From: a phage
Reading direction: 5' to 3' (one strand)
Sequence record: PZ445451.1
DNA length: 64,000 nucleotides
Shown in pieces: positions 9,475 through 44,354 of the stretch. The first letter of the stretch is position 1, and each line of letters opens with the position of its first letter. The notes beneath the pieces were generated by a model, which was not told the DNA's origin, searched no databases, and saw only the letters and a list, made by a program, of their open reading frames with translations. A program made the translations under genes and the position numbers.

Positions 9475-9494
9475 AGTTTCTAACAGGAGCATAA

Positions 9495-10901
9495 ATGGCA
9501 ACTTTTCGTGATAAGGTAGTTTCCGTAACCCTTACCTACGGTGCTACTTCAATTAGTGAAACACAGTTTGATATCCCTCTAATTCTTACAGGGCATAACG
9601 TTACTGGCAATCTTGTAGATTATTTCACTTCTTCAGACGCACTTCTGCAAGCAGGTTTTGGCACTGCCGATCCAGCTTATAAAATGGCAAAACTACTATT
9701 TGACGGTCTGTTCGCACCAGAACAAGTTATCGTCGGTAAGCGTGATGTTTCTAAAACAACTCTAACTCCAGTAGTTGAAGATAGTGCAACTTACGTTATC
9801 ACTATTAAAGCAAATTCAAAAAGCAAGGACTTCAAGTTTGTTGCCGATGATACTGCAACTGCTCAAGAGATTGTTGTTGGTTTAACAGAAATGATCAACG
9901 CAGACATAGTGTATAAAGAATTCTTCACTGTGTCAAACGATGGTAGTGTTATCACTGTAACCCCAGTTGCAGGTAAATACGCTACTATGGATAGTTCAGG
10001 ATTCACAACTAAAGTAGAATATGCAAATGATATCTTAGAAGATATTGCTAAAATTGCAGATTATGAAAACAGTTGGTTCTGGTTACTATCTGATTCTCAC
10101 GCAGAACAAGATATTATCGATCTAGCAGGTTATGTAGAAGAGCACGATAAAGTGTATTTCTTCTCTACCTCGCAACCAGGTGTTCTAACTAAAGAAGAAG
10201 ATAACATTCTAGAACGCTTAGGTGATATGGGCTACAATAACACTTGTATGGCATTGTGGATGACTAACGCTGATACAGTGTTCCCAGAGGCTGCTGTAGT
10301 TGGTTCTATCTGCTCTGCAACACCAGGTACTACTACCCTGCATGGTAAAACCCTTGTTGGTATCGAGATTGAAAAACTTGGTCAGACAGCAGAAAACTTT
10401 ATCGTTCAACAGAATGGTAATATTTACCGTAAAGAACACGGTGTTCTGTTCTACCGTGATGGTTTCATGGTTAGTGGTTTCTATGTTGACTATGTGGTAC
10501 ACGCTCTGTGGTTCAAAGCTCGTGTAGAAGAATCTCTGTTCGCTCTATTTAAACAGCAATCTATGCTTGGTAGTGGTGTTAGAGCAACTTCTGCTGGTCT
10601 TGCTTTGATTCGTCAGGCTGTTACTGCAAACCCAATCCAAGTAGGTATTAACAATGGTTCTATTGCCAATGAGGTAGTAACTTCAGAGGAAACAGGACTT
10701 CTGGTAAGCCTTAAACCTACTATCTATATCCCATCTCGTGCAGATATGACTGATGCTCAAATCAATGCACGTTTGGTTGATGGTATGGTTATTGAATACG
10801 TATACGCTGGATTCTTCCACTATGTTAAAGTGCAGGTAAACGTTCTGACGAACCGCACTGCAAATAGCCAGAATTCCAATAGCTCTACTGTATCTTCATA
10901 A
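9495..10901 (+). CDS. Tail sheath protein (putative)
   Basis: 468 aa ORF followed by a ~160 aa tube-size gene, chaperone pair and tape measure (canonical contractile-tail order); strong RBS; terminator hairpin downstream. Confidence 0.5.
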   Translation: MATFRDKVVSVTLTYGATSISETQFDIPLILTGHNVTGNLVDYFTSSDALLQAGFGTADPAYKMAKLLFDGLFAPEQVIVGKRDVSKTTLTPVVEDSATYVITIKANSKSKDFKFVADDTATAQEIVVGLTEMINADIVYKEFFTVSNDGSVITVTPVAGKYATMDSSGFTTKVEYANDILEDIAKIADYENSWFWLLSDSHAEQDIIDLAGYVEEHDKVYFFSTSQPGVLTKEEDNILERLGDMGYNNTCMALWMTNADTVFPEAAVVGSICSATPGTTTLHGKTLVGIEIEKLGQTAENFIVQQNGNIYRKEHGVLFYRDGFMVSGFYVDYVVHALWFKARVEESLFALFKQQSMLGSGVRATSAGLALIRQAVTANPIQVGINNGSIANEVVTSEETGLLVSLKPTIYIPSRADMTDAQINARLVDGMVIEYVYAGFFHYVKVQVNVLTNRTANSQNSNSSTVSS

Positions 10902-21251: not shown

Positions 21252-23411
21252 ATGAAACAGGCTATTTTTACTGTAACTCGAAATACGAGAGTAAATGCCA
21301 GTTCATTCAGCTATAAGACCGTCGATGGAACGGCGGTCGCTGGTAGAGATTATGTAGCTAAACAGGGAACAGTAACGTTCCCTTCTGATGCAGATTCTGC
21401 TACTGTAGTGGTTGATGTATATGAACGTCCGGCAAACTCTTTAGATCTTTATTTTACTCTTGAGATTACTAGCATAAGTCAAAATAACATGATGATCAAC
21501 GAAGAAATTCGTTGTGTTATTACGACTGATCAATCGAATACAACCCCGCTAACTTGGCCTGTTGTGAAGTCTAGAATGTTTGATCCTAAGTTTTGGACAA
21601 TAGATTCTCAAGCAACAGAAAGTTGTTCTATTATCTCTAATGGTGATTCTTTCACAGCAAGAATGGTTAATAGGACAGTGGCTGGTCTTGCTGGGATTAT
21701 TTGGTCAACTTACGATAAATATGATCACAAAGGATTAGGCTACCAAGAACATTCTGATTTAAGTAAAGAAAAACTTTGGTTTAAAATGGAACTTAGTCAA
21801 GGTGTTCCTGGATTAAAAGAAGAAAAATTAATGCCATCCTTAACAGTGACACTGAAGGATGAAACAGTTCATTATGTATCTCTAAACTTTTATGCAGAAG
21901 AAGTTTCAGAGGACGGTAAAACAGCAATAATCAAATTAGATTTCTCAAATTTAAAATCTGGGTCAGAAAATGATATTGTTGTTGACACTACACAAATAGA
22001 TAACATGTTCTTCTCCTTGATCTCCGCAAGGTATCAAGAAATTGAAGATGTTATACCTGTAGACAATATGGATCTTTCCTTTAAGTTTACCATACTAGAG
22101 CCTGATACTGGTTACAGTATGATGAATATGGGTAATTTAAATGTTCCGGCGCACACCATAAGAATGTGTACATCTTATGATGATATGTATAACCTAACCC
22201 CAGAGCGAGTTATTTCTAACACCTATAGATTAGGTTATAGAGATATGATTAACCATTATAATGGTATGTCACACTATTATCAATTTAGTTGGGATGCTGG
22301 ATCTAATAAATGGGCTTTGAACAGAACAGAATATTTAAACCCAGCAACAGAAGCCTGGTTTGATAATTTCCACGCTAATGCAAAAGCTATGGGCTACACA
22401 GTAATGAACTCCTTAAGTTTTGAACTTATGAGTACAGTGTGTCCTGTAGAATGGGTACAACATGCTTGGAATGATGATCTTGCTGCTACAGGTTATGAGC
22501 CACCAAGTTATGTTTTATCTCCTTCAATTGATGAAGGGATGAATTATTTACAAGGTGTAATAAATAAGATAGCTTCTATATCCGCTGCTAATGATCTTCC
22601 GGTTATTATTCAGGTTGGTGAACCGTGGTGGTGGTATAACACAGCTACCAATCTACCGTGTATTTATGATTATACAACCAAAGTTGCATTTAATAATGAA
22701 ACTGGATTATATGCACAAGATGTTGGTACAGTTAAGAATTATAAAACTGGTACACCATATGATGAATATTATGCATTCCTATCTAAAACATTAGGACTAC
22801 GTGTTGCTAAGTTTGCAACGGATACTAGATTAGCATATCCTGGAGCGAAAGTTACATTGTTACCATTTGTGCCATCCATTTTGGGTAATGGTATGATGGA
22901 GTTTGTTAACTTTCCTAAAGATTATTATATCCCAGAAAACTTTGACTTTTATTGTTCAGAATGTTATGATTGGTTGTTGGAAGGTAAGATGGAAAGATCT
23001 TTCGACGCTATCACAATACCTAATGAGCAACTAGGTTTTAGTTATGATAAGATACATTATCTTGCAGGGTTTGTTCCAGATGCAACTCTAGCACCATTAT
23101 ATGGCTTTGATCCTGAATCAGACTACAGAACATATTTGTGGAAAATGATTATAGGTAATATTGTATTGAATGACCAGAAGTTTGTTGGTTTATATCAATA
23201 CATATGGGCTTATCCACAAATAATGCATGATTCAATAACTGTTCTTAATTCAAAATCCCAAGTTTTTTATATGGGTAATGTGCCTTTGAATTGCTATTTG
23301 CAAGATATCACTCTTAAACAGGTAAATGTTACGATTGCTACTATAAGCGGAATTACATTAGCCACTAAATCTGGAGAAGATTTAGTAACAACACAAAAAT
23401 TTTATATATAG
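21252..23411 (+). CDS. Large virion-associated protein (719 aa), possible carbohydrate-active tail protein
   Basis: Aromatic-rich ORF in the tail module with AAGGA RBS. Confidence 0.4.
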   Translation: MKQAIFTVTRNTRVNASSFSYKTVDGTAVAGRDYVAKQGTVTFPSDADSATVVVDVYERPANSLDLYFTLEITSISQNNMMINEEIRCVITTDQSNTTPLTWPVVKSRMFDPKFWTIDSQATESCSIISNGDSFTARMVNRTVAGLAGIIWSTYDKYDHKGLGYQEHSDLSKEKLWFKMELSQGVPGLKEEKLMPSLTVTLKDETVHYVSLNFYAEEVSEDGKTAIIKLDFSNLKSGSENDIVVDTTQIDNMFFSLISARYQEIEDVIPVDNMDLSFKFTILEPDTGYSMMNMGNLNVPAHTIRMCTSYDDMYNLTPERVISNTYRLGYRDMINHYNGMSHYYQFSWDAGSNKWALNRTEYLNPATEAWFDNFHANAKAMGYTVMNSLSFELMSTVCPVEWVQHAWNDDLAATGYEPPSYVLSPSIDEGMNYLQGVINKIASISAANDLPVIIQVGEPWWWYNTATNLPCIYDYTTKVAFNNETGLYAQDVGTVKNYKTGTPYDEYYAFLSKTLGLRVAKFATDTRLAYPGAKVTLLPFVPSILGNGMMEFVNFPKDYYIPENFDFYCSECYDWLLEGKMERSFDAITIPNEQLGFSYDKIHYLAGFVPDATLAPLYGFDPESDYRTYLWKMIIGNIVLNDQKFVGLYQYIWAYPQIMHDSITVLNSKSQVFYMGNVPLNCYLQDITLKQVNVTIATISGITLATKSGEDLVTTQKFYI

Positions 23412-29581: not shown

Positions 29582-29923
29582 ATGGAGCTAACAGAAGTAT
29601 GGGATATCGCTAAAGAGGCGATTATCCCTCTTATTGGCGTAATCTGGGTGGTCTTCAAACAGAAGATAGATGATATGGCAAGTGATTTGGATAAAATGGA
29701 AGACAAATACCGCGAACTAGAAAAGAAGTTGGTGTTTGTTGAATCCACTTATGCTACCAAAGCAGAACTTGCTCAAATGCTTAACCAGATCAACTCTACA
29801 TTAATGGCAAATAATACTGCCTTAGAACAGAAGATTGAAAAAATAATGGATTTAAAAAATGCTCCTGTTCAATTAATGTTAGAGGAGATTACGAAGCGCA
29901 CACAAAGTAAGGACAAAAATTAA
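29582..29923 (+). CDS. Membrane-anchored coiled-coil protein (unknown function)
   Basis: 113 aa; N-terminal TM segment IIPLIGVIWVVF followed by a heptad-like charged region. Confidence 0.35.
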   Translation: MELTEVWDIAKEAIIPLIGVIWVVFKQKIDDMASDLDKMEDKYRELEKKLVFVESTYATKAELAQMLNQINSTLMANNTALEQKIEKIMDLKNAPVQLMLEEITKRTQSKDKN

Positions 29924-32337
29924 TGGCGAATTTTCCAACATATCCTGCTACGACACTAGAACAAGGTGTTGATCTGGTTATATTCTCGTCTAACCAGATG
30001 CATGATGTTATTAATGGGGATGCTACAGCAACTGTAGAAACCGAAACAGGTTTAATACCTACACTGCGTAAAGCACTTGTTGATAACTTCTTCTTTAAGA
30101 GTCCTGTTGCTTGGTCAGCAGGATCAACTGAAACTGTATTTAACCAGTTACGTTATTTTGAAAACGGTATCTTGAGTGGATACTATTATGCCCCATCTGC
30201 CACTACTGCTAACCCTGTACCTATGCAGGGTACACCTGTAGGAGATAGTAACTGGACTCTGTACGCTCTTAAAACTGAACAGTTAGCTTCAGATGTGTAT
30301 CCTTGGTATTTTAAAGGTGCTACAGGATATGAAACAGAAATCAGTCCTCCTTATATCTTTGATAATGCTATTGTCACCATTAATGGTGTAATTCAGATTC
30401 AAGGTGAAGCATTTACTATCAAAGATAGTAAAATTATTCTGGCAGAACCATTAGGTTTAGATCCGTCTACTGGTCTACCTAACAAATTGTTTGCTTTTAT
30501 TGGTAAAACAACAGCCTCTACTTCTTACGTAGAGAAAAACCTTTTGTCATCTACTACTGGTGCAGCAATGGTTGGTCTTCCATCTGGAGGCAACCTGTTA
30601 CAAGCTCAATACTTTGTAACGCCTGAGCAGTTTGGTGCAATTGGGGATGGAGTTACCGATGATACTCAAGCAATTTTAAAAACCATTACTTTCGCTAACA
30701 CGAATAACATTCAAGTACGTGCAGATAAGAATTATAGATTCACAAGCTCAATTGCTATGTCTGGTATTCGTTGGTATGGTGGTACATTCACTGGTAACGG
30801 TGGAACAATGATTTCTACTGTGTCCTGTTGGATTGAAAACGTTCGCTTTGAAAAATGTTATGTTAAGATGTTAGGTGGGGATTGCCGATTCTATCGTAAT
30901 ATCTTCTCCAACGCAACATCTACAGCAGCATTCTTAATGCAAGCAATGACAAGTGAAGGTACGTTGGACTTCAGTTACAACGAAATGTATGGTTGTAAAT
31001 ATGCGATCCTGCAACAAGGTACTGGAGAAGTAATGACCTACGGGCGTTACTCTAACAACTATATTCACGATATTAAAGGTGATGCTATTGAACTTAACGT
31101 AGTTCAAAAACACTACACTGAAGGTTTGATTATCGAGAATAACCACATTGCTAACGTAGATGCTTCTGGACAAGGGGCAAACTGGGGTATTGGTATTGGT
31201 GTAGCAGGTAGTGGCCCATATGGTGTTGATGTTCCTGATTCACAATATGTACGTAATTTCAGTATCGTTGGGAATAGGGTTTACAATTGCCGTCAATGTT
31301 TACACGTTGAAATGGGTAAAAACTTCACAATACGTGATAATGAAGTTTATCCTAACACAGCAGTTTCAACAGGTACAGGTTTAACTACTTGTGGTGTTGC
31401 ATTATACGGATGCCAAGATTTTGAAGTTGATGGTTTAACTGGTTATCTGCTTAATGACCCATCTGTTTCAACACGCATGGTCTTTATTGACTGGGGTGTT
31501 AACAGTGGAAGATATGCGGGGCCACCAATTAACTTTACAATTAAGAATTTGGATATTCCAGAATCTTCAATTGAGATTGCAACATCTGGATCAGATGACT
31601 GGGAAAACTCTACAATTGTTAGTAATATCAATTGTAATGTTTTTAAATGGCGTGGGCTACCATCTAGCTCTACCTTTAATAATATTCGTTGCCGTAGTAT
31701 TGACTTTATTGGTCAACACGGAAGCGGAGAAGGAAGTGGTGGCGGTTTCTATACTCGCAGTCAATTCACGTATATGAAGTGGGTAGGATGCACAGCACTT
31801 AGCGGAGATGAAACAACAGTTTCTTTTGCTAAAATCTACACTGATCGTTGCGATCAGGTTGGAAATAATTTTGGTGTTCCAACTGCTGTTGATGGTACAG
31901 GTCATCGTGGGCCAGTTTTAACTACTATTTCTGAACAATATTTTACAGCTTATGATGAATTCCCAGGTGGGCGTGAATTCCCTACTGGAACAGTTATTCA
32001 TTGTGCAAGCGGTAAAAAACATGTTGTTACAGTAGGTGGTGCTTTCTTTAGTGACAACGAGAAAATAAAAGCAACTGTTACAGGTCAAACCTATCTACAG
32101 TCTAATGCTTTAAACTGGGCTAGTAATGGCTACGCTAAAGCAGCAGGTACTAAGATTGTTATTCCAGGTGCAGGTGCAAATGGCGGCGATCTTGTGACAA
32201 CTATAGCACGTGCTACATACGTGACAAATAGTTTGTACACAATAGATATTGCAGATCCAATTGTAACACCTACAGCAGAGAATACACAAATTAAAGCTCT
32301 GAATCCTGTTACTTTTGTTACTGTCAACAATGCTTAA
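29923..32337 (+). CDS. Tailspike protein with pectate-lyase-type beta-helix (putative depolymerase)
   Basis: 804 aa; motif PEQFGAIGDGVTDDTQAI is the classic N-terminal signature of pectate-lyase-3 / GH28-like beta-helix tailspikes; N-terminal anchor domain. Confidence 0.65.
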   Translation: MANFPTYPATTLEQGVDLVIFSSNQMHDVINGDATATVETETGLIPTLRKALVDNFFFKSPVAWSAGSTETVFNQLRYFENGILSGYYYAPSATTANPVPMQGTPVGDSNWTLYALKTEQLASDVYPWYFKGATGYETEISPPYIFDNAIVTINGVIQIQGEAFTIKDSKIILAEPLGLDPSTGLPNKLFAFIGKTTASTSYVEKNLLSSTTGAAMVGLPSGGNLLQAQYFVTPEQFGAIGDGVTDDTQAILKTITFANTNNIQVRADKNYRFTSSIAMSGIRWYGGTFTGNGGTMISTVSCWIENVRFEKCYVKMLGGDCRFYRNIFSNATSTAAFLMQAMTSEGTLDFSYNEMYGCKYAILQQGTGEVMTYGRYSNNYIHDIKGDAIELNVVQKHYTEGLIIENNHIANVDASGQGANWGIGIGVAGSGPYGVDVPDSQYVRNFSIVGNRVYNCRQCLHVEMGKNFTIRDNEVYPNTAVSTGTGLTTCGVALYGCQDFEVDGLTGYLLNDPSVSTRMVFIDWGVNSGRYAGPPINFTIKNLDIPESSIEIATSGSDDWENSTIVSNINCNVFKWRGLPSSSTFNNIRCRSIDFIGQHGSGEGSGGGFYTRSQFTYMKWVGCTALSGDETTVSFAKIYTDRCDQVGNNFGVPTAVDGTGHRGPVLTTISEQYFTAYDEFPGGREFPTGTVIHCASGKKHVVTVGGAFFSDNEKIKATVTGQTYLQSNALNWASNGYAKAAGTKIVIPGAGANGGDLVTTIARATYVTNSLYTIDIADPIVTPTAENTQIKALNPVTFVTVNNA

Positions 32338-32378: not shown

Positions 32379-34340
32379 GTGATTTTAACACGTCCAAATA
32401 GTGCCATTGCAGACATGGTAGAGTCTCGCTATAGAAAGCGTAGAAGTTTTGCAAGTGGTTTTACCTTAAGAGATGCTCGTGAAGCATTGCTCTTTGAAGC
32501 TGACGGTAACTACTATCAGTGGAAAGGTTCTCTACCTAAAGTTGTACCTGCTAACTCTACTCCTACATCTACTGGAGGGATTTCAGATACAGCTTGGAAA
32601 AATGTGGGTAATGCAGATGACATTGCTCAAATAGAATCAGAATTAGATGCTATTGAAGCTGAAATTGAAGATCTTAGAGAATCCATTCCAGAAGCTGGTA
32701 AATCAGCTTACCAGATTGCCGTAGACAATGGTTTCCAAGGTACTGAGACAGACTGGTTGGCTTCTTTAAAAGGTGATCCAGGTGCTCCATTAAAGCTGCT
32801 AGGGACGCTATCTAATACCAACCAATTACCTGCAACTGGAAACAATGCAGGAGATGCATGGATTGTAGGCGAGAATATGTATGCTTGGGATGGTACTGCT
32901 TGGAGAAAAGTAAACTCACAGGGGCCAGAAGGTAAATCTGCTTATGAAGTATGGCTTGCAGCAGGAAATGAAGGTACAGAACTAGATTATCTTGCTTCAA
33001 TTAAAGGTGATAAAGGGGAGCCTGGCCCAGAGGGGCCACAAGGTGTGCCAGGTAATAATGCTAATGGTTTTGATTACCAAGGCGCAGCTAATTCCGTTTC
33101 AGATCTTCCTTCTGCATCTCATGGAAACACATCTCAAGCATGGAGTGTTGGTACATATCTATACGTGTCAAACGGTGTAGAATGGATCAATATGGGCGCT
33201 ATAGTGGGGCCAAAAGGAGATAAAGGCGACAAAGGAGATAAGGGTAATACTGGTGATTCAGCTTATCAAGTCTGGTTAAATGCTGGTAACGTTGGTACTA
33301 TTGACGAATATATTGCCTCTCTGAAAGGAGAAAAAGGTGATAAGGGAGACAAGGGTGATCAAGGTGTACAGGGTATACAAGGCTTGACGGGGCCAACTGG
33401 CGCAGGGTTGACCATTATTGATATTCTGACTAACACTTCTGAACTACCACAAACTGGAGAAGATGGTGATGGTTATCTAATCAATAATGAACTTTGGGTC
33501 TGGTTGCAAGGAGCCACAGAGTGGACAAATGTTGGTCGTTTAGCTGGTACTCCAATCACTGCAAAAGGACACGTTGCGTCTGCAAGTGCGCTTCCTCCTA
33601 CAGCCAATTACGGTGATGCTTATCTGACGGAAGATACAGGTCATCTTTACATTTACACCTATAATGAACAAACTCAAACTGCTGAATATGTAGATATGGG
33701 TAGTTTGAAAGGTGATAAGGGTGAAAAAGGTGACGCTGGTACTAACGGTACAGACGGTGCAACTTGGATTGTTAAAACAACAGATCCAATCTCTAGTGAT
33801 GGTAAACAAGGTGATTATGCCTTTAATATCTCCACTGGTGAGGTGTTCTTAAAAACATCTGCAACTGTCTGGTCTTCTCAAGGTACACTACCTAGTATCA
33901 CAGATGCACCTAGTGATGGTAAGACTTATGCTCGTAAAGATGGGGCATGGGAAGAACTCACTAATTCTGTAGATGGTCAAGATATAGTTCCAACAAAAGT
34001 AACAACTAATTTTATAGAGGTTACAGCATATACCAACAATTCTGTTACAGGGGACTGGACACCTCCAGGAACACATAACATGAATGTGTTGAATCTTACT
34101 GGTAACGCTACTATAAAAGCATGGCCTGGTGTCGAAGATAGTACAAAACCTAAACCATTCTCTGCAATAGTTTATCTTATCCAAGATGCCACTGGAGGTC
34201 GTACTGTTACTTTAGATCCATCTTACAAAGTAATTGGTTCCAGTGATATTAATACAGATCCTAACGGAGTAACAATACTACAACTAACATATTGTGGTGT
34301 TGGTGATTACGTGGATGCTATTGTTGCTAAACGCACATAA
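32379..34340 (+). CDS. Collagen-like repeat tail fibre protein
   Basis: 653 aa; several Gly-X-Y tracts (GDKGDKGDKGNTG, GEKGDKGDKGDQGVQGIQGLTGPTG) interleaved with a repeated module SAYQ.W..AGN.GT..DYLAS.KG; GTG start with AAAGGAG RBS. Confidence 0.65.
   Translation: MILTRPNSAIADMVESRYRKRRSFASGFTLRDAREALLFEADGNYYQWKGSLPKVVPANSTPTSTGGISDTAWKNVGNADDIAQIESELDAIEAEIEDLRESIPEAGKSAYQIAVDNGFQGTETDWLASLKGDPGAPLKLLGTLSNTNQLPATGNNAGDAWIVGENMYAWDGTAWRKVNSQGPEGKSAYEVWLAAGNEGTELDYLASIKGDKGEPGPEGPQGVPGNNANGFDYQGAANSVSDLPSASHGNTSQAWSVGTYLYVSNGVEWINMGAIVGPKGDKGDKGDKGNTGDSAYQVWLNAGNVGTIDEYIASLKGEKGDKGDKGDQGVQGIQGLTGPTGAGLTIIDILTNTSELPQTGEDGDGYLINNELWVWLQGATEWTNVGRLAGTPITAKGHVASASALPPTANYGDAYLTEDTGHLYIYTYNEQTQTAEYVDMGSLKGDKGEKGDAGTNGTDGATWIVKTTDPISSDGKQGDYAFNISTGEVFLKTSATVWSSQGTLPSITDAPSDGKTYARKDGAWEELTNSVDGQDIVPTKVTTNFIEVTAYTNNSVTGDWTPPGTHNMNVLNLTGNATIKAWPGVEDSTKPKPFSAIVYLIQDATGGRTVTLDPSYKVIGSSDINTDPNGVTILQLTYCGVGDYVDAIVAKRT
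33220..33365 (+). repeat. In-frame tandem 9 bp repeats (GAT AAR GGN) encoding collagen-like Gly-X-Y tracts
   Basis: Repeated gataaaggcgacaaaggagataagggt-type units inside the fibre gene. Confidence 0.6.
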
Positions 34341-34343
34341 TCA

Positions 34344-34368
34344 AAGCCCCTTCGGGGGCTTATTGTTT
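34344..34368 (+). terminator. Rho-independent terminator (UUCG loop)
   Basis: agcccc-ttcg-ggggct followed by tattgttt. Confidence 0.55.
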
Positions 34369-34379
34369 AAGGAGATTAA

Positions 34380-37199
34380 ATGTATCCTATTCCTCTATTT
34401 ATGTCAACAACACCAGCTTCAGTAGTAACAGCTACATCTATAACTACTTCCTCTATTGGTATTGCAATAGTTGGTGGTAAAAAACAACTGACATACACAG
34501 TTACACCGGAAGATGGTGCATTATTTGATATAGCTTTTTCATCTTCAGATAATACCAAAATGGTTATAGATAATAGTGGTATGATGGAGTTTGTTGCCGA
34601 AGGTGGTTTTGATGCAATAATGACAGCTAAAAATAATTTAGGTGCTGTCTTAACTGATCAATCTGGTGGTTATGCTTCAGAATTAAGTGTGTACACTGAA
34701 AGTCTATCGGCTATGGATGTAGGCACTACTCAACAGTTAGTTGCTACAATCAGTCCAGAAGGTGCTAAAGACCTTCCAGATATGGTAATTACATACACCA
34801 CAACAGATCCAGAAGTAGCTACTGTAAGCCCTACAGGGTTAATAACTGCTCTTAAAGATGGCGGTTGCCGTATAGGTTGTACTGCAACGTATCAAGGAAC
34901 AGTTGTGGCCTCTGATAGGTCTTATTTAGGTGTTAATGCTATTCCTGTTATTTCTAATGTAACAGCCGTGGCAAACAGTTATGGAGACGTTCGTGTTGCT
35001 TGGGATGTAACTGATCCACTAGACGGTGATACTTATACTGTAGAAGTATTAGATTTAAGTGATAATAGTGTTCAGTGGACTACAACAACCACGAATACTC
35101 ATGCTTACTTTGATATCTCTGACTCTATTCCTCTTTATGGGTTTGCTCCAACATACCTTAAAATTAGCGTTAAGAGCACCAAAGCAGCAGCCGTTATCTT
35201 TAATAACTCAATAGCTACAGATGATTCATTCATTAAAGAAGTTATTGTCTTTGCTGGACAAGATAACGTAAATGCACACTTTACAGAACTATCTGGTGCA
35301 AATAAAGCAGCAATGAGTAGCACAACAGCCCGTAATGCATATGCTGCGCAACGTGGTTTAGCAAATGCTGAAGTTCTTCCGTTAAATACAGCTTCTGGAT
35401 CATCAGCAGCAGATAAATATGCTGACGATAAAGCTGGAACAGGTACACCAGACAATTACTGGTATGATCTGGATAACACAGCAGATGGGCCATGCTTAAC
35501 TAACTTTATCACTAAAGTCACACCTTATGCAAGTAAGGTTAAAGCAATTATTTGGGGACAAGGTGAAAATGATGCTGTATCAGCATCTTCGACTGTTGCA
35601 GGTAGGTACAGTAACACTACACGTTACCATGATGCTACGATAGCTATCTTTGATAAGATGCGTACAATAGTTCCTGCTTCTCAAGCAAAAATTGTTTGGC
35701 AGATCCTAGGACGTTCTTATTTATATGGTGTAGAAGTTAATGGTGTGGATTGGCAGAAGTACAGAAATGTACAAAGAACCATCTCTACAGCACGTGATGA
35801 TGTTATCATTGGTTCTTGGGTAGATGGTGCTGAACGTTACAGTGGCTATGTTTATGAAGAAGGTATTGATGGTCGTATCCATTATGTTTCTTCTGTATAC
35901 CAAACAGCAGCTACAAAACTTGCTAAATCGGCAGCAGACGGTACAGACTTAACATCAACGTCACCTGTTTGGGTTGATATGGCTGTTCCAACTGGAGCAA
36001 CAGCCACTTCCCAATCTAATCAAGATACAATTTTAGCATGGGATGCTCAAGGCTATAGTAAACACTACTTCCGTAATATTAACGTCTTAACCGCATCTGT
36101 ATTAACTGAACAAACGCTTAATACGAACAGTTATACGTTTACCTATGCAGATCAAGTAGAACAATATGGTTTTGCAGCAGGAACTGCTATATTTGATGTT
36201 GCATATTATGACGAAGCAAATGATGTGTTATCTCCTTTAGTACGTTTTAATGTTAATATTACAGCAGGAACCGAAGAAGATAAACCTGTCGTGATGGACT
36301 ATGATTTGACGCAAGAAACTCTCCCATCAGATGTTAAGGTTAATGGTGGGAACTCTTTTGCTCGTGCCTCTGGAGATAAACTTGTAGCCACTAACACCTT
36401 GGTTGCCCCGTTGGAGTATGTTGGTACTACCCCTGTAGGTAGACGTGTAACAGCTAACACAGCTACACAAATTTTTGTCAACAACGCCTTAACAAGTGCA
36501 AGCCCGTGGGTAAAGACCAACTTAACTGTTGCAGCTTCATCTGATAACTCTCCGGCTGGAACTACTGCTAATGTATTCAAATTAACTCCGACTACAACCT
36601 CTGGTAGTCATATCTTAACTGCAACATATACTAACGCGTACAACATATCTGCCGGACGTAACTGGTCTGCCTCTGTTTTCTTGAAAGCGAACGGGATTAC
36701 TAAGGCCAAACTAAGATTAAAAGCAGGAACTGAAGTTAATGAGGGTACTTTTGATTTAGCAGCAGGTACATTCACAGGAAGTGAAGCTAATATTATATCT
36801 ATGGGCAACGGTTGGTATCGTGCTATTCTGCATAAAACAGGGATAGCCAAACAGTCCTCCATAAGTTTTGAAATAATTGCCTTGGATGCAACTGGTGCGG
36901 AGATTTTCGCTGGAAATGGTACTAGTAACCTTGCAGTTTGGTTGCCACAGCTTGAAGGTGCTTCTACAGGAGAAACATCAAAAGCTGGATCGCCTTATGT
37001 CTGCACATATCCTGGAAATTTAGGAGGAGTATCCTTCACTATACCAAGGAACGGACATACTGGTGTGGATGTTTACTATTCCAACGGAGACGTTGTTCGT
37101 GACGTATTCTCTGGTACGGCATCTACTTGGACAATAAACTACTCCAGCTTGTACGATTGGGGATCAGTCTTTATTACAGGTTTGAAATATTACGACTAA
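34380..37199 (+). CDS. Tailspike/tail fibre with two Big_2 Ig-like domains and a SASA-type carbohydrate esterase domain
   Basis: 939 aa; N-terminal Big_2-like repeats (TQQLVATISPEGAKD...ATVSPTGLITALKDG); GQDN(V) and WGQGENDA motifs resemble the GQSN / QGESD motifs of sialate-O-acetylesterase-type domains; C-terminal beta-rich region. Confidence 0.55.
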   Translation: MYPIPLFMSTTPASVVTATSITTSSIGIAIVGGKKQLTYTVTPEDGALFDIAFSSSDNTKMVIDNSGMMEFVAEGGFDAIMTAKNNLGAVLTDQSGGYASELSVYTESLSAMDVGTTQQLVATISPEGAKDLPDMVITYTTTDPEVATVSPTGLITALKDGGCRIGCTATYQGTVVASDRSYLGVNAIPVISNVTAVANSYGDVRVAWDVTDPLDGDTYTVEVLDLSDNSVQWTTTTTNTHAYFDISDSIPLYGFAPTYLKISVKSTKAAAVIFNNSIATDDSFIKEVIVFAGQDNVNAHFTELSGANKAAMSSTTARNAYAAQRGLANAEVLPLNTASGSSAADKYADDKAGTGTPDNYWYDLDNTADGPCLTNFITKVTPYASKVKAIIWGQGENDAVSASSTVAGRYSNTTRYHDATIAIFDKMRTIVPASQAKIVWQILGRSYLYGVEVNGVDWQKYRNVQRTISTARDDVIIGSWVDGAERYSGYVYEEGIDGRIHYVSSVYQTAATKLAKSAADGTDLTSTSPVWVDMAVPTGATATSQSNQDTILAWDAQGYSKHYFRNINVLTASVLTEQTLNTNSYTFTYADQVEQYGFAAGTAIFDVAYYDEANDVLSPLVRFNVNITAGTEEDKPVVMDYDLTQETLPSDVKVNGGNSFARASGDKLVATNTLVAPLEYVGTTPVGRRVTANTATQIFVNNALTSASPWVKTNLTVAASSDNSPAGTTANVFKLTPTTTSGSHILTATYTNAYNISAGRNWSASVFLKANGITKAKLRLKAGTEVNEGTFDLAAGTFTGSEANIISMGNGWYRAILHKTGIAKQSSISFEIIALDATGAEIFAGNGTSNLAVWLPQLEGASTGETSKAGSPYVCTYPGNLGGVSFTIPRNGHTGVDVYYSNGDVVRDVFSGTASTWTINYSSLYDWGSVFITGLKYYD

Positions 37200-37200
37200 T

Positions 37201-37230
37201 AAAAAAGGAGCCATTAGGCTCCTTTTCTTT
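37201..37230. terminator. Bidirectional terminator at the convergence of + and - transcription units
   Basis: Stem ggagcc / ggctcc with loop atta, flanked by aaaaaa on one side and ttttctttt on the other. Confidence 0.65.
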
Positions 37231-41039: not shown

Positions 41040-44000
41040 CTAATGACAACTGGCCCATGAGTTACCAACATCGTACCCAGCAGTGAGAGGTACATTAAGA
41101 TTGTAATACTCACCAGCTTTATTAACAGCGATAGATGCTAATTCTCCAGCACGACTGTAGGCTGTAAACCAACCACCTTTCGGAGATTCATGTACGTTCG
41201 CCCAAATCTTGCCAGTACGTTTCTCTTCCTCTTCTTTCCAGGCATTAACTTTATCCAAACATTCTTTATCAATTTTCTTTTGTTCTTCTGGATCATCAAC
41301 TTGAGTCCAACCTAAAGATTCTTTAGAGAACCATTTAAAATGCACCAGATCACGAGTTACTTCAAGTTGTGCTTCATCGTGATATGCAATCATTTGTTGA
41401 ACGAATGACTTATTTTTCCAGTCATCAACAAAAAAGTCAACAGCTAATCCTTCTTCTTCGATAAGATCGTCGTAGATAACCATTGCTCTTTTTGCACAAA
41501 TAACACCACCACTCTGGAACAGAGAGTTAAGTATTGCGTGTGCAGATCGTGTAGGTACTTTTCTACCATCAATACCGAGAATGTATTTCTTACCTGTTTT
41601 AACCCAAAAGTCATGCAGACGTTCTTTAAGAAGCGCAAGAGGTTTTGCAGCTTCCCAGAAAGCATCGTATACAAGCTGTCCTGTATACATATCACTACCT
41701 ATAGTTTTTGCTACTTTTGCAGCTTGAGCACCATAAGTAATACCATACTTAACAGATTTAGCAGGGCTTCGTTCAAACTTACGACCAATAGTGTCAGAAA
41801 TACGTCGAGCCATCATTGTATGAACATCATTAGGTTTTTCCAATAATAGAGCATTACAATATTCGTGTGGTTCCTGCTCGTACCGCCAACAATTCCCTGT
41901 AATCGTGATGCAGTCTTTCTGACGCATAACCCATGTACCGAGTTCTGTTTGTGGACACCAAACATCTTCTACACCCCATTCTTCAATAGTCAGACTTTGA
42001 ACAGGGATGTGAGAGCGGTTAGCCAACGTTGCCACTTTTACTTTCTGGTCTTTCGTATTGAAGGCTACAGAAATATTACCCCCATGAACCAGGTATGAGG
42101 CAGTTAAGGCTGCTTCAAAAAGTTCTCCTGGGTTCTGCGCCCAGCGCCAAACAGGTTTTTGTTTATGTTTGTGCCAGTAACCATCCGCAATCAAAAAACC
42201 TTCCAAGAAAGCCACACGCTCGGCATGAGACATATTAACTACACGTTCTACCCACGGAACATCCCATTTACCTTGTTGAACAGAAGTTAAACTATTTACT
42301 TGATCTTGTTCCATGTTAAATGGAGCATTACAAATAATGTTATCTCCTGTGCAAAGCTCGGCAGTTGTTCTGACTTTAGGCACATAAGTATTCCCTGTAC
42401 TACGAGTATTAACATACCAACGGTGATCTGCTGTTGCACGATAAGTATGGGATTTTCCTTTAATCTCAAACGTCTTACTATTTTTATAGAAGACCTTACC
42501 TTTTACTTTAGTCCATTCTTTAAGTCCTGTTTCTGGGTTATATCCTAAGATTTCATCCCCTTCTTGTAGATCGTGATAACCAACCCAACCTTTACGGGTT
42601 AGTGCTTGTGCATCCATAGGTACACAGTAGTGTGATTCTATTTTTGCCTCAAGAGAATCAAAGTCATAACCAATTTGGAAGTATTTTGGAACTTCTACAC
42701 CAAATAAGTTACGCATTTCATATCCGTACAGAGATGTTACACGTGGGATATTTGCTACTAACCTATGTTTCATACGAGATGTAGCTGCATCACACGTTGC
42801 AGCAGGAGTTGGTATACGACCATCAGCCCTTACTGCTGCCAGATAACCTTTATCGTAATCCTCTTCATCTTCTTCCCAATCAGCACCACCACCTAGAATA
42901 GAGTTCCTACGGTGTTTATACGTAAGATACTGCACAATCTGCGTAGCATAAGGAAACTTTTCACCCAGTGCTTCCAAGTTAGGACAAATATCTTTCTCTT
43001 GCCCTTTTGTAAAGGAAGGGTTCGTAAGCACTTTAACACCACGACCTTTAGCTTTAGCAATACGATCTCTTAGTTTCCATTCCAAAGTTTCTGGTGTGCA
43101 CTCCAGATGATCACATCTGTCCTGGCAGAAGTTAGATGCTAACGTTTGATCAACATAGTCACGAATAGCTTTCTCCATTTGTGCTTCATCTTTCTTAATC
43201 TTAGTGCCAGATTTAAGAGTGATATCTTTATCTTTGTATTCAGATGGACTCCAACCTAAACCAACTAACCAGTTTTTAATATGTGTAGTGTCGTCTAAAG
43301 TAGCAGGTACTGTAGGATCACAAATAGGTTCTTCTGCTGGAATAGGGAGTTTAAACTCTTTACCTAAAGCAAATAACCACCAACCATCTTCTTTTTGTAC
43401 AAGTTCACCAGAATGTTTCTCTGCAAACTTTATCATGTTACTTGAAGGTTCACCATTCTTTTTAAACTGTAGTTTAGGTGGAATGAATGATTTCAAATAA
43501 CCTTTGGTAGCAGGTTTAGGAGGTAGCACAGGTTCTGCCTCTAAACGACATGCTTCCATTCGAGCATCCAGATCACGAATATTATCTTCTGCTTGTTTCA
43601 TATTGAAAGCAAAGCCACGGTGCTCTTGACGTGTAATAATATCAGCTACACGTTGTTCTAAGTTAAATGGTTCAGACCACTTATTATAATCACCCCACTC
43701 TTCCATCAAATAACGGAACACTGCGGTGTTAGCTTTGTTATCGTAAATACAGTAATACAGCATATCTGCTGCAAATGTTTTAAATCTTTCAGTTTCAGGG
43801 ATGTTTTTTCTAAAATCAATTTTAACATCCCCTCCAGCTTTCTTAGATAACTCTGCCAGACTATGACCACCGAAGCGATCAGGGTTTAGTGTCTTACTTA
43901 AGATCATAGTATCACAAATTTCAATGTTACTATTACCCCAAGTATTGTACTTAATACTGTAGTTGAGTTTAAAAAATAATTTAATTGCCAGTAAGTCGAA

Positions 44001-44354
44001 GTTAATGATGTTGTGTCCAACTACTTTGGTAATTTTATAGTTTGAATTACCTTTAAATTTACCTGTTCCATTTACAAAATCAGGAAAATCTTTAAGAGGG
44101 AAATGGGTATATTCTAAATGCTCATATTCCTCCAATCGGTATTCATACTTTCCGTCAGTCTCAATATACGGACGACCATCGAAAAGATATTTATCACCAT
44201 CATGGAAAGCAATAATCTCTCCAGTATCATGACTTTCGCACACAATACAGTGCATTGCAAAACTATCTTTTAAACGATATGGACTTGCCAAGTAATCTAC
44301 ACTTTCGTCATTAAGCAAGTTGTTACTTTCAATGTCGAAAGTAAAAGCTCCCAT
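41040..44354 (-). CDS. DNA polymerase, family A (3'-5' exonuclease + polymerase), intein-containing
   Basis: Exo I FDIES and Exo II HNIINFD motifs; motif A DFDSLEAKIESHY interrupted right after HY; motif B-like KSVKYGITYG; motif C-like YHDE; strong AAGGAGGG RBS. Confidence 0.8.
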   Translation of the reverse strand: MGAFTFDIESNNLLNDESVDYLASPYRLKDSFAMHCIVCESHDTGEIIAFHDGDKYLFDGRPYIETDGKYEYRLEEYEHLEYTHFPLKDFPDFVNGTGKFKGNSNYKITKVVGHNIINFDLLAIKLFFKLNYSIKYNTWGNSNIEICDTMILSKTLNPDRFGGHSLAELSKKAGGDVKIDFRKNIPETERFKTFAADMLYYCIYDNKANTAVFRYLMEEWGDYNKWSEPFNLEQRVADIITRQEHRGFAFNMKQAEDNIRDLDARMEACRLEAEPVLPPKPATKGYLKSFIPPKLQFKKNGEPSSNMIKFAEKHSGELVQKEDGWWLFALGKEFKLPIPAEEPICDPTVPATLDDTTHIKNWLVGLGWSPSEYKDKDITLKSGTKIKKDEAQMEKAIRDYVDQTLASNFCQDRCDHLECTPETLEWKLRDRIAKAKGRGVKVLTNPSFTKGQEKDICPNLEALGEKFPYATQIVQYLTYKHRRNSILGGGADWEEDEEDYDKGYLAAVRADGRIPTPAATCDAATSRMKHRLVANIPRVTSLYGYEMRNLFGVEVPKYFQIGYDFDSLEAKIESHYCVPMDAQALTRKGWVGYHDLQEGDEILGYNPETGLKEWTKVKGKVFYKNSKTFEIKGKSHTYRATADHRWYVNTRSTGNTYVPKVRTTAELCTGDNIICNAPFNMEQDQVNSLTSVQQGKWDVPWVERVVNMSHAERVAFLEGFLIADGYWHKHKQKPVWRWAQNPGELFEAALTASYLVHGGNISVAFNTKDQKVKVATLANRSHIPVQSLTIEEWGVEDVWCPQTELGTWVMRQKDCITITGNCWRYEQEPHEYCNALLLEKPNDVHTMMARRISDTIGRKFERSPAKSVKYGITYGAQAAKVAKTIGSDMYTGQLVYDAFWEAAKPLALLKERLHDFWVKTGKKYILGIDGRKVPTRSAHAILNSLFQSGGVICAKRAMVIYDDLIEEEGLAVDFFVDDWKNKSFVQQMIAYHDEAQLEVTRDLVHFKWFSKESLGWTQVDDPEEQKKIDKECLDKVNAWKEEEEKRTGKIWANVHESPKGGWFTAYSRAGELASIAVNKAGEYYNLNVPLTAGYDVGNSWASCH
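41892..42626 (-). mobile_element. Intein (about 245 aa) with LAGLIDADG homing-endonuclease motif in the polymerase motif A region
   Basis: Starts with Cys after ...IESHY (CVPMDAQALTRKGW); block B TADHRWYV; LAGLIDADG-like VAFLEGFLIADGYW (about 42180-42209); ends ...ITITGN followed by Cys; extein resumes CWRYEQEPHEY...DVHT, aligning with family A sequence after motif A. Confidence 0.7.

What the first reader, a model, noticed from the sequence alone, without database searches (positions are those of the whole stretch)
34380..37199. Tailspike combining Big_2 Ig-like domains with a SASA-type carbohydrate esterase domain
The 939-aa distal tail protein has two N-terminal Big_2-like repeats and a central region with GQDN and WGQGENDA motifs resembling the GQSN and QGESD catalytic motifs of sialate-O-acetylesterase-type enzymes. 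A virion-borne deacetylase suggests the phage recognises and chemically edits O-acetylated capsule or O-antigen rather than cleaving the glycan backbone.
Basis: partly seen in the sequence, partly recalled or inferred. Interest (0 to 1): 0.5.

Follow-up and report, generated by a model that had tools for sequence, protein, structure and literature searches.

The report
Phage tail adhesin with serine-less esterase domain
This phage tail-fibre-cluster protein does contain Ig-like domains and a real sialate-O-acetylesterase-type fold, but the catalytic serine is replaced by aspartate, so it is more likely a sugar-binding "dead esterase" adhesin than an enzyme that strips acetyl groups from the host surface.

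Summary
The window is Escherichia phage PaulScherrer (Bas60, phi92-like). The ORF 34380-37199 (939 aa, bas60_0037) is real. Two Big_2 domains are confirmed (Pfam E 1e-13). Residues 283-530 form a genuine SASA-type SGNH fold. The evidence is an AlphaFold model (pLDDT 94), Foldseek hits to phage N4 gp65 (TM 0.79) and to SASA, CE2 and GDSL esterases, and Pfam SASA matches in 17 of 25 family members.

"GQDN" is not a harmless variant of GQSN. Asp295 occupies the nucleophile position, where 33 of 46 homologous domain copies have Ser together with the catalytic His. Ser-to-Asp is one derived change shared with the Av-05 sister clade. That clade then also lost the oxyanion Gln, the Gln of the QGE motif and, in some members, the His.

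The only solved SGNH-fold structure reported with Asp at this position is the non-enzymatic Oskar domain. The domain is still under strong purifying selection (dN/dS 0.05-0.15).

The C-terminus is a CBM-like fibre-tip domain. No tailspike beta-helix or tailspike N-terminal domain was detected. The published "deacetylase" fibre of these phages is a different gene, bas60_0026.

Verdict: observation confirmed, deacetylase interpretation only partly supported. The most likely function is a modular glycan-binding accessory adhesin with a pseudo-esterase domain. Interest is modest.

The parts
34344..34361 (+). Terminator-like GC hairpin followed by a T-run, between the upstream fibre gene (ends 34340) and this gene
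   Evidence: Consensus scan; sequence read. Suggests that expression is attenuated or depends on read-through (inference).
34369..34374 (+). Shine-Dalgarno AAGGAG, 5 nt upstream of the ATG
   Evidence: Sequence read.
34380..37199 (+). bas60_0037, 939-aa modular tail-fibre-cluster protein (orthologue of phi92 gp152+gp153)
34380..34400 (+). Conserved N-terminal heptapeptide MYPIPLF (MFPIPIF in Phapecoctavirus), candidate attachment motif
   Evidence: Conserved across three different downstream architectures in the alignment. Its function is inferred only.
34437..34940 (+). Two Big_2 Ig-like domains (residues ~20-187)
   Evidence: Pfam PF02368, E 1.4e-13 to 6e-15, two stretches; PDB 6n1a match; PHROG Ig-domain families.
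34950..35225 (+). Spacer module A (residues 191-282), beta-rich, fold unassigned, co-conserved with the SGNH domain
   Evidence: Homologues align from query residue ~193 onward. No Pfam match.
35226..35969 (+). SASA-type SGNH-fold domain (residues 283-530) lacking the serine nucleophile
   Evidence: AF2 pLDDT 94.3, pTM 0.92; Foldseek hits to N4 gp65 at TM 0.79 and to 7kmm, 2apj, CE2 and GDSL esterases; BFVD; Pfam SASA in 17/25 relatives.
35256..35267 (+). Block I GQDN. Gln294 is retained. Asp295 (codon GAT, 35262-35264) sits at the nucleophile position.
35553..35576 (+). Block III WGQGENDA. The SASA-specific QGE motif (Q394-G395-E396) is retained.
   Evidence: Motif definition from PMC9487903.
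35880..35882 (+). His501, the Block V catalytic-base position, retained
   Evidence: Alignment. It lies in the loop before the last long helix of the model.
35970..36275 (+). Spacer module B (residues 531-632), beta-rich, fold unassigned. The short-form orthologues end here.
36276..37196 (+). C-terminal CBM-like beta-sandwich fibre-tip domain (residues 633-939), exchanged as an allele between phages
   Evidence: phmmer versus PDB: 9occ_C tail fiber gp17 E 9e-19, RcGTA head-spike fibre 6tb9 E 2.7e-13. AF2 core pLDDT >90 with Foldseek hits to Pa193 gp46, E217 gp45 and CBM4/22/61. dS 1.5 against EmilieFrey, compared with 0.04-0.14 elsewhere in the gene.
37203..37226 (+). Strong terminator-like hairpin (10 bp stem) directly after the stop codon, shared with the convergent gene
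   Evidence: Annotated as a terminator in relatives Paula and PATM.

Best explanation
bas60_0037 is a modular accessory glycan-binding protein (adhesin) of the tail-fibre cluster of a phi92-like myovirus, not a tailspike enzyme. Its domain order is: a short conserved N-terminal peptide, two Big_2 Ig-like domains, spacer, SASA-type SGNH domain, spacer, and a CBM-like fibre-tip beta-sandwich. The SGNH domain descends from active-looking GQSN esterase modules that are also found in N4 gp65-type tail proteins. In the common ancestor of the phi92-like and Av-05-like proteins the nucleophile Ser became Asp. The domain is therefore most likely a pseudo-esterase. It keeps its substrate pocket (Gln294, the QGE motif, His501) and is kept under purifying selection to bind a surface polysaccharide, possibly an acetylated one, without removing the acetyl group. 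The exchangeable C-terminal domain supplies a second, variable specificity. Shown here: architecture, fold, homology, the residue at each catalytic position, evolutionary polarity and selective constraint. Inferred: virion attachment, glycan binding, lack of activity and the ligand.
For: Fold: AF2 pLDDT 94 and Foldseek matches to N4 gp65 and to SASA, CE2 and GDSL esterases. Homology: exhaustive HMMER search found 76 representatives, 17/25 aligned members hit Pfam SASA, and the family profile hits N4 gp65 at E 4e-85. Catalytic positions: 33/46 domain copies have Ser+His, while the query clade has Asp+His or Asp+Gln. Polarity: in the NJ tree the Asp clade is monophyletic and nested among GQS/His sequences, with P0009 and P0010 as nearest relatives. 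Decay: the Av-05 clade has additionally lost Gln294 (to Gly), Gln394 (to Leu), Asn397 (to Gln) and, in 2 of 5 sequences, His501 (to Gln), as expected once catalysis is gone. Precedents: the only SGNH-fold structure with Asp at the nucleophile position in a survey of 30 representative structures is the non-enzymatic OSK domain (PMC10792757). A CE2 esterase active site is titled as having divergent catalytic and non-catalytic binding functions (PDB 2w9x). The second copy of this domain in N4 gp65 lacks Ser, QGE and His, and gp65 is described as a receptor-binding sheath protein. Constraint: dN/dS of the SGNH domain is 0.05-0.15, the lowest in the gene. Binding context: Big_2 domains and a CBM-like tip homologous to fibre tips.
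Against: No biochemical data exist. Every other SASA-specific catalytic residue is intact in the phi92-like clade, and the domain is strongly conserved, which would also fit a retained non-canonical activity. Asp is conserved across both clades rather than drifting, so it may have a chemical role. It could equally be retained only as a helix N-cap (inference). Virion incorporation and oligomeric state were not tested. The gene is frameshifted in the phi92 reference and split in ALITA, so it may be dispensable.
Confidence: 0.55

Rival explanations
1. One reading: an active virion-borne O-acetyl esterase that edits capsule or O-antigen. Asp295 would act as an unconventional nucleophile, or together with His501 would activate water.
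For: SASA fold and pocket residues Gln294, Q394-G395-E396 and His501 are retained. The domain is under strong purifying selection. Asp is conserved in both clades. Active SGNH deacetylase fibres are common in phages (PMC9569702; PMC13123978). Relatives are auto-annotated 'tail carbohydrate esterase'.
Against: The SGNH mechanism requires the Block I Ser, which forms the acyl-enzyme (PMC9487903). Substitution of SASA Block I/III residues abolishes activity (same review). The only known SGNH-fold structure with Asp at this position is not an enzyme (PMC10792757). The sister clade keeps Asp but has lost the oxyanion Gln, the QGE Gln and sometimes the His.
Confidence: 0.15
2. The SGNH domain is purely architectural: a rigid spacer or assembly module with no ligand, as the homologous copies in the N4 gp65 sheath may be. 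All receptor contact would be made by the Big_2 and C-terminal domains.
For: The closest structural relative is N4 gp65, a structural sheath subunit. Phapecoctavirus orthologues omit the spacer-SGNH-spacer block entirely yet keep Big_2 and the C-terminal tip.
Against: Short-form orthologues (muut, phi92, Av-05) end after the SGNH block and have no C-terminal tip, so there the SGNH block is the distal element. The pocket residues are conserved in phi92-likes, and dN/dS is lower than in the flanking domains.
Confidence: 0.2
3. The gene is a dispensable or decaying accessory gene, not a functional virion component.
For: The phi92 reference carries it as two fragments (gp152, and gp153 noted as 'no RBS identified') with 9 stops in the 250 residues after the motif in that frame. 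ALITA has it split. A terminator-like hairpin lies immediately upstream.
Against: It is intact in PaulScherrer, EmilieFrey, JohannJBalmer, muut, Av-05 and two IMG/VR contigs. dN/dS is 0.05-0.36 across domains. It has its own strong RBS. 72 of 77 phage records with a match cover at least 80% of the SGNH domain.
Confidence: 0.1

Closest known systems
Phage N4 gp65 non-contractile tail sheath / receptor-binding protein (PDB 9lc0, 9yf4)
   Same: It contains two tandem copies of the same SGNH-like module with flanking beta modules. The family profile scores E 4e-85 and Foldseek gives TM 0.79 at about 20% identity. The second gp65 copy has also lost the catalytic motifs. It is a tail-surface, receptor-binding protein.
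   Different: gp65 is a 1382-aa, 10-domain sheath subunit of a podovirus that pairs with gp64 and holds the tail plug. It has no Big_2 domains and no CBM-like tip. The gp65 N-terminal segment (343-416) and the gp64 TIM barrel correspond to a different PaulScherrer gene, bas60_0026.
SASA / CE6 sialate-O-acetylesterase family (Pfam PF03629; NanS 3pt5, At4g34215 2apj, CAC0529 1zmb, XAC1771 7kmm)
   Same: SGNH fold, Block I Gln, Block III QGE motif and Block V His.
   Different: The nucleophile Ser is replaced by Asp295. The query scores below the Pfam gathering threshold. The domain is embedded in a phage structural protein.
Phage SGNH deacetylase tail fibres and spikes (G7C gp63.1, Pectobacterium phage Possum tail spike, Vi06 fibre, Klebsiella prophage RBPs)
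   Same: An SGNH-fold domain in a tail receptor-binding protein. Possum, PPWS4 and Vi06 proteins appear among the BFVD structural matches.
   Different: Several of these have demonstrated esterase or deacetylase activity (PMC9569702, PMC13123978). They are only distant structural relatives (E 1e-5, about 10-15% identity). The query lacks the Ser.
OSK domain of Drosophila Oskar (PDB 5a4a)
   Same: It is the only SGNH-fold structure reported with Asp at the nucleophile position, and it is a non-enzymatic binding domain (PMC10792757).
   Different: It is a eukaryotic RNA-binding domain that lacks the rest of the triad. There is no evolutionary link to this phage protein beyond the superfamily fold.
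RcGTA head-spike fibre Rcc01080 (6tb9) and tail fiber gp17 (9occ) tip domains
   Same: The C-terminal 300 residues are homologous (E 2.7e-13 and 9e-19) and form a CBM-like beta-sandwich.
   Different: Those proteins carry the domain on simple fibres. Here it follows the Big_2 and SGNH modules and is absent from short-form orthologues.

Membership tests
SASA / CE6 (PF03629) | SGNH alpha/beta/alpha fold | tested here: met
   AF2 pLDDT 94.3. Foldseek hits to 7kmm, 2apj, CE2 and GDSL esterases at E 6e-6 to 1e-3.
SASA / CE6 (PF03629) | Score above the Pfam gathering threshold | tested here: not met
   Query scores 14.8-17.0 bits against a cut-off of 24.8. 17/25 aligned relatives do match at E<=0.01 (best 2.9e-13), so homology is established only transitively.
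SASA / CE6 (PF03629) | Block I catalytic Ser (GQS) | tested here: not met
   Asp295 (GAT) occupies this column, and 33/46 homologous copies have Ser.
SASA / CE6 (PF03629) | Block I Gln forming the inverted oxyanion hole | tested here: met
   Gln294 is present. The feature is defined in PMC9487903. The geometry was not measured.
SASA / CE6 (PF03629) | Block III (H)QGE motif | tested here: met
   Q394-G395-E396 within WGQGENDA.
SASA / CE6 (PF03629) | Block V catalytic His | tested here: met
   His501 aligns with the conserved (W)IHY His. The Block V Asp is not conserved in this family, as in NanS.
SASA / CE6 (PF03629) | O-acetyl esterase activity | not testable with these tools
   Needs an enzyme assay.
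Big_2 (PF02368) | Profile match above the gathering threshold, two repeats | tested here: met
   51-55 bits against a cut-off of 22.8, two stretches.
N4 gp65-type non-contractile tail sheath | Shared spacer-SGNH-spacer module | tested here: met
   Profile E 4e-85 against 9lc0_I, TM 0.79, PHROG 15324.
N4 gp65-type non-contractile tail sheath | Full architecture (gp64-binding N-terminal/TIM region and plug-binding D9-D10) | tested here: not met
   The NCTSP_N and TIM-barrel domains are in bas60_0026, not in this protein. Here the ends are Big_2 and a CBM-like tip.
Classical phage tailspike | Trimeric beta-helix body with an N-terminal particle-binding domain | tested here: not met
   No Tail_spike_N, pectate-lyase or beta-helix hits were found, whereas the neighbours at 29923-32337 and 32379-34340 have them. 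Oligomeric state was not tested.
CBM-like fibre-tip domain (Rcc01080 / gp17 type) | Sequence and fold similarity of the C-terminal domain | tested here: met
   E 9e-19 and 2.7e-13. The jelly-roll core has pLDDT >90 and matches Pa193 gp46 and several CBMs. The first 64 residues of the segment are low confidence.

The most novel reading that the evidence does not exclude
The Asp295 variant is not dead but is a new catalytic solution in the SGNH/SASA fold, using an Asp-His pair with an intact Gln/QGE oxyanion hole. It would hydrolyse acetyl esters, or perform another acyl or glycan modification, on the host surface. That would explain why Asp specifically, and the rest of the pocket, are conserved under strong purifying selection in phi92-like phages.
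Probability: 0.1. Interest if true: 0.7.

Novelty: new variant of a known kind. Interest (0 to 1): 0.3.

Why it matters
Phi92-like phages are studied for their exceptionally broad host range, which is attributed to a "Swiss-army-knife" set of tail fibres whose gene assignments are still unresolved (PMC8594841, PMC13450770). Automatic pipelines already label this gene "tail carbohydrate esterase". This analysis shows that the label rests on a fold whose catalytic serine is missing. Host-range models and enzyme-mining efforts should therefore not count it as a deacetylase without an assay. It is a clean candidate example of an enzyme domain converted into a binding module in a phage receptor-binding protein. 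It also shows that the SGNH-like modules of the N4 gp65 receptor-binding sheath belong to a wider, originally esterase-type family that is shuffled among myovirus and podovirus tail proteins.

Tried and rejected
1. The word-indexed homology search of the central region returned only 6 close hits. The exhaustive HMMER search was needed to find the wider family.
2. The IMG/VR scan with the SGNH domain gave only two near-identical loci.
3. Pfam at E<=10 on the two ~95-aa spacer modules gave nothing meaningful, so I do not call them FN3.
4. Model coordinates are not exposed to the scripting sandbox. The Asp295-His501-Gln294 geometry could therefore not be measured, and positions rest on alignment and secondary-structure placement.
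5. Schwarzer et al. 2012, which holds the phi92 virion proteomics, is not in the held library, so virion incorporation could not be checked.
6. I considered that this gene might be the published "glycan deacetylase"/NGR-binding fibre of Vequintavirinae and phi92-likes. I rejected this: that fibre is bas60_0026 / phi92 gp142, with the NCTSP TIM barrel and N4 gp64/gp65 N-terminal homology.
7. I considered misalignment or a sequencing error as the source of the Asp. I rejected this: the G-Q-x-N...H-F context is unambiguous, Ser-to-Asp needs at least two nucleotide changes (GAT), and GQDN is present in all 8 phi92-like loci examined.
8. The C-terminal model is only partly confident (pLDDT 69; residues 1-64 of the segment are below 50), so only its core was interpreted.
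Full report
**Identity of the locus**

The window is 100% identical to Escherichia phage PaulScherrer (Bas60, MZ501100.1), a Justusliebigvirus and therefore a phi92-like myovirus. Window coordinate equals record coordinate minus 675. ORF 34380-37199 (+), 939 aa, is bas60_0037, deposited as [quoted passage not shown].

Near-identical orthologues carry several names: "tail protein", "putative tail component protein", "non-contractile tail sheath" and, in ALITA and KMB37, "tail carbohydrate esterase". The gene is the last one of the plus-strand tail-fibre cluster. It follows the colanidase tailspike (29923-32337) and a collagen-repeat fibre (32379-34340). It has its own AAGGAG ribosome-binding site and is bracketed by terminator-like hairpins at 34344-34361 and 37203-37226.

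**Check of the observation**

Both motifs exist: GQDN at residues 293-296 and WGQGENDA at 392-399. Two Big_2 Ig-like domains are significant (E 1.4e-13, 51 bits against a cut-off of 22.8).

The query's own Pfam SASA hit is sub-threshold (14.8-17 bits against 24.8). I therefore tested homology at family level:
- An exhaustive HMMER search with residues 190-640 found 76 cluster representatives.
- I aligned 46 domain copies taken from them.
- Of the 25 members placed in alignment A1, 17 hit Pfam SASA, with a best E of 2.9e-13.
- The A1 profile hits phage N4 gp65 (PDB 9lc0, 9yf4) at E 4e-85 as two tandem copies. It also weakly hits the SASA structures 1zmb, 2apj and 3pt5.

AlphaFold2 on A1 gave a confident model of residues 283-545 (pLDDT 94.3, pTM 0.92). 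Foldseek against the PDB returned N4 gp65 (TM 0.79). The next hits were the SASA-type acetylesterase XAC1771 (7kmm), At4g34215 (2apj), CE2 esterases and many GDSL/SGNH esterases. BFVD returned the alia and phi92 orthologues and many phage SGNH tail proteins, including the Possum and PPWS4 tail spikes and the Vi06 fibre. The esterase-type fold and the SASA affiliation are therefore real.

**The catalytic site**

The SGNH review (PMC9487903) defines SASA enzymes by four features:
- a Block I Ser nucleophile;
- a preceding Gln that forms an inverted oxyanion hole;
- a Block III (H)QGE motif that positions that Gln;
- a Block V His (NanS lacks the Block V Asp).

In the family alignment, 33 of 46 domain copies carry Ser and His at these columns, mostly as GQSN...QGExD...(W)IHY. 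PaulScherrer has Gln294, Q394-G395-E396 and His501, but Asp295 (codon GAT) in the Ser column. In the model this residue is the first residue of the helix after beta-strand 1, which is the classical nucleophile elbow.

GQDN is present in all eight phi92-like loci examined. The 47-49% identical Av-05 (Avunavirus) clade has GGDN, SLGEQD and RIH(Q)Y. It keeps the Asp but has lost the oxyanion Gln, the Gln of QGE and Asn397. Two of its five sequences have also lost the His.

A neighbour-joining tree places the Asp-bearing sequences as one clade nested among GQS/His sequences. Ser-to-Asp is therefore a single derived event, followed by further erosion of the active site in one daughter lineage.

A structural survey of SGNH-fold proteins states that Ser is the nucleophile in all of them. 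The single exception is the OSK domain of Oskar, which has Asp at that position and is not an enzyme (PMC10792757). The second copy of the domain in N4 gp65 is likewise degenerate (GINQ, ANPWE, WIYY), and gp65 is described as a receptor-binding sheath protein.

**Is the domain still functional?**

Codon-level comparison with EmilieFrey, JohannJBalmer and muut gives dN/dS of 0.05-0.15 for the SGNH domain. The other domains give:
- 0.26-0.31 for the Big_2 pair;
- 0.09-0.17 for spacer A;
- 0.15-0.36 for spacer B.

The number of substitutions is small (dS 0.035-0.065), so this is indicative rather than precise. It argues against a decaying domain. The gene is, however, frameshifted in the phi92 reference (gp152 plus gp153, noted as "no RBS identified") and split in ALITA. 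It may therefore be dispensable under some conditions.

**Rest of the protein and modularity**

The C-terminal ~300 residues are directly homologous to a solved tail-fibre tip (9occ gp17, E 9e-19) and to the RcGTA head-spike fibre Rcc01080 (E 2.7e-13). More than 1,100 database proteins share the core. The model's core is a confident jelly-roll that matches the Pa193 gp46 and E217 gp45 baseplate proteins and CBM4/22/61 modules. This domain is exchanged as an allele: dS is 1.5 against EmilieFrey, compared with 0.04-0.14 in the rest of the gene.

Orthologues come in three architectures, all behind the same N-terminal peptide MYPIPLF/MFPIPIF:
- a long form, as here;
- a short form that ends after the SGNH block (muut, phi92, Av-05);
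- a Phapecoctavirus form with an RCC1-like propeller, Big_2 and the C-terminal tip, but no SGNH block.

No tailspike beta-helix or particle-binding N-terminal domain was found in this protein.

**Mechanism proposed**

The protein is most likely an accessory, modular glycan-binding adhesin. Its SGNH domain would act as a pseudo-esterase that binds a surface polysaccharide without deacetylating it. The C-terminal CBM-like tip would add a second, swappable specificity (confidence about 0.55).

Precedent for SGNH active sites used for non-catalytic carbohydrate binding exists in CE2 esterases (PDB 2w9x title).

Three rivals remain:
- a non-canonical active esterase (0.15);
- a purely architectural module (0.2);
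- a dispensable or decaying gene (0.1).

Conservation of Asp specifically could reflect ligand contact, residual chemistry or merely helix N-capping (inference). This cannot be resolved without coordinates or experiments.

**Relation to what is known**

Virion-borne SGNH deacetylases are well established: G7C gp63.1, Possum, Acinetobacter phages and Klebsiella prophages (PMC9569702, PMC8471582, PMC13123978).

The fibre that the BASEL and N4 literature calls a glycan deacetylase and NGR binder in these phages is bas60_0026 / phi92 gp142. That protein has the NCTSP_N and TIM-barrel domains and is homologous to N4 gp64 and to gp65 residues 343-416. It is not this gene.

In the papers I could read, I found no description of the Ser-to-Asp substitution in bas60_0037. 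The N4 structure paper also does not describe gp65 domains as SGNH-like: the terms "SGNH" and "hydrolase" occur zero times in PMC13434306.

I rate this a new variant of a known kind. Interest is modest (0.3).

Noticed in passing
window 21252-23411 (+), bas60_0026: This 719-aa fibre protein has Calx-beta, NCTSP_N and 'non-contractile tail sheath TIM barrel' domains (E 7e-82). It is homologous to N4 gp64 (E 5e-27) and to gp65 residues 343-416. It is the published NGR-binding 'deacetylase' fibre (phi92 gp142). Together with bas60_0037, the domain repertoire of both N4 sheath subunits is present in this myovirus but distributed over different genes.
   Followed up: partly
PDB 9lc0_I (N4 gp65) residues 433-601 and 726-998, seen through the A1 profile: N4 gp65 contains two tandem copies of this SASA/SGNH-like module. 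Copy 1 reads GESQ...GQGDQD (Ser retained). Copy 2 reads GINQ...ANPWE...WIYY (Ser, QGE and His all lost). The N4 structure paper I could read does not mention an SGNH or hydrolase fold for these domains.
   Followed up: partly
L005 (phi92, NC_023693) 6381-8043; L002 (ALITA) 8001-10820: The orthologue is broken in the phi92 reference (gp152 'lambda V-like fold' plus gp153 'no RBS identified', with frame-disrupting stops) and split in two in ALITA. These are either sequencing errors or real inactivation of a dispensable gene.
   Followed up: partly
L010 (vB_EcoM_ASO2A) 214-1500: The Phapecoctavirus orthologue starts with the same MFPIPIF peptide. It then carries a ~390-aa RCC1-like beta-propeller (Pfam RCC1/WD40_RLD) before Big_2 and the C-terminal tip, and it lacks the SGNH block. 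This is a third architecture on one scaffold.
   Followed up: partly
window 32379-34340 (+): The neighbouring 653-aa fibre combines a TSP1/gp66-type Tail_spike_N domain, collagen-like G-x-y repeats and a fibritin-C-like segment. It is the phi92 gp151 orthologue, which remains unassigned in the 2026 phi92 cryo-EM study.
   Followed up: no
window 41040-44354 (-): A DNA polymerase gene interrupted by an intein (annotated in the GenBank record as an intein-containing precursor).
   Followed up: no
window 34344-34361: A GC-rich terminator-like hairpin lies inside the tail-fibre operon, immediately upstream of this gene's RBS. It suggests that the last gene is expressed at a lower level or by read-through.
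   Followed up: no
P0008 (2270 aa), residues 913-1192 and 1370-1666: A metagenomic giant protein carries two tandem canonical (GQSN/His) copies of this domain. Several other representatives of 1000-1800 aa also carry multiple copies, which indicates a widespread shuffled tail-protein module.
   Followed up: no
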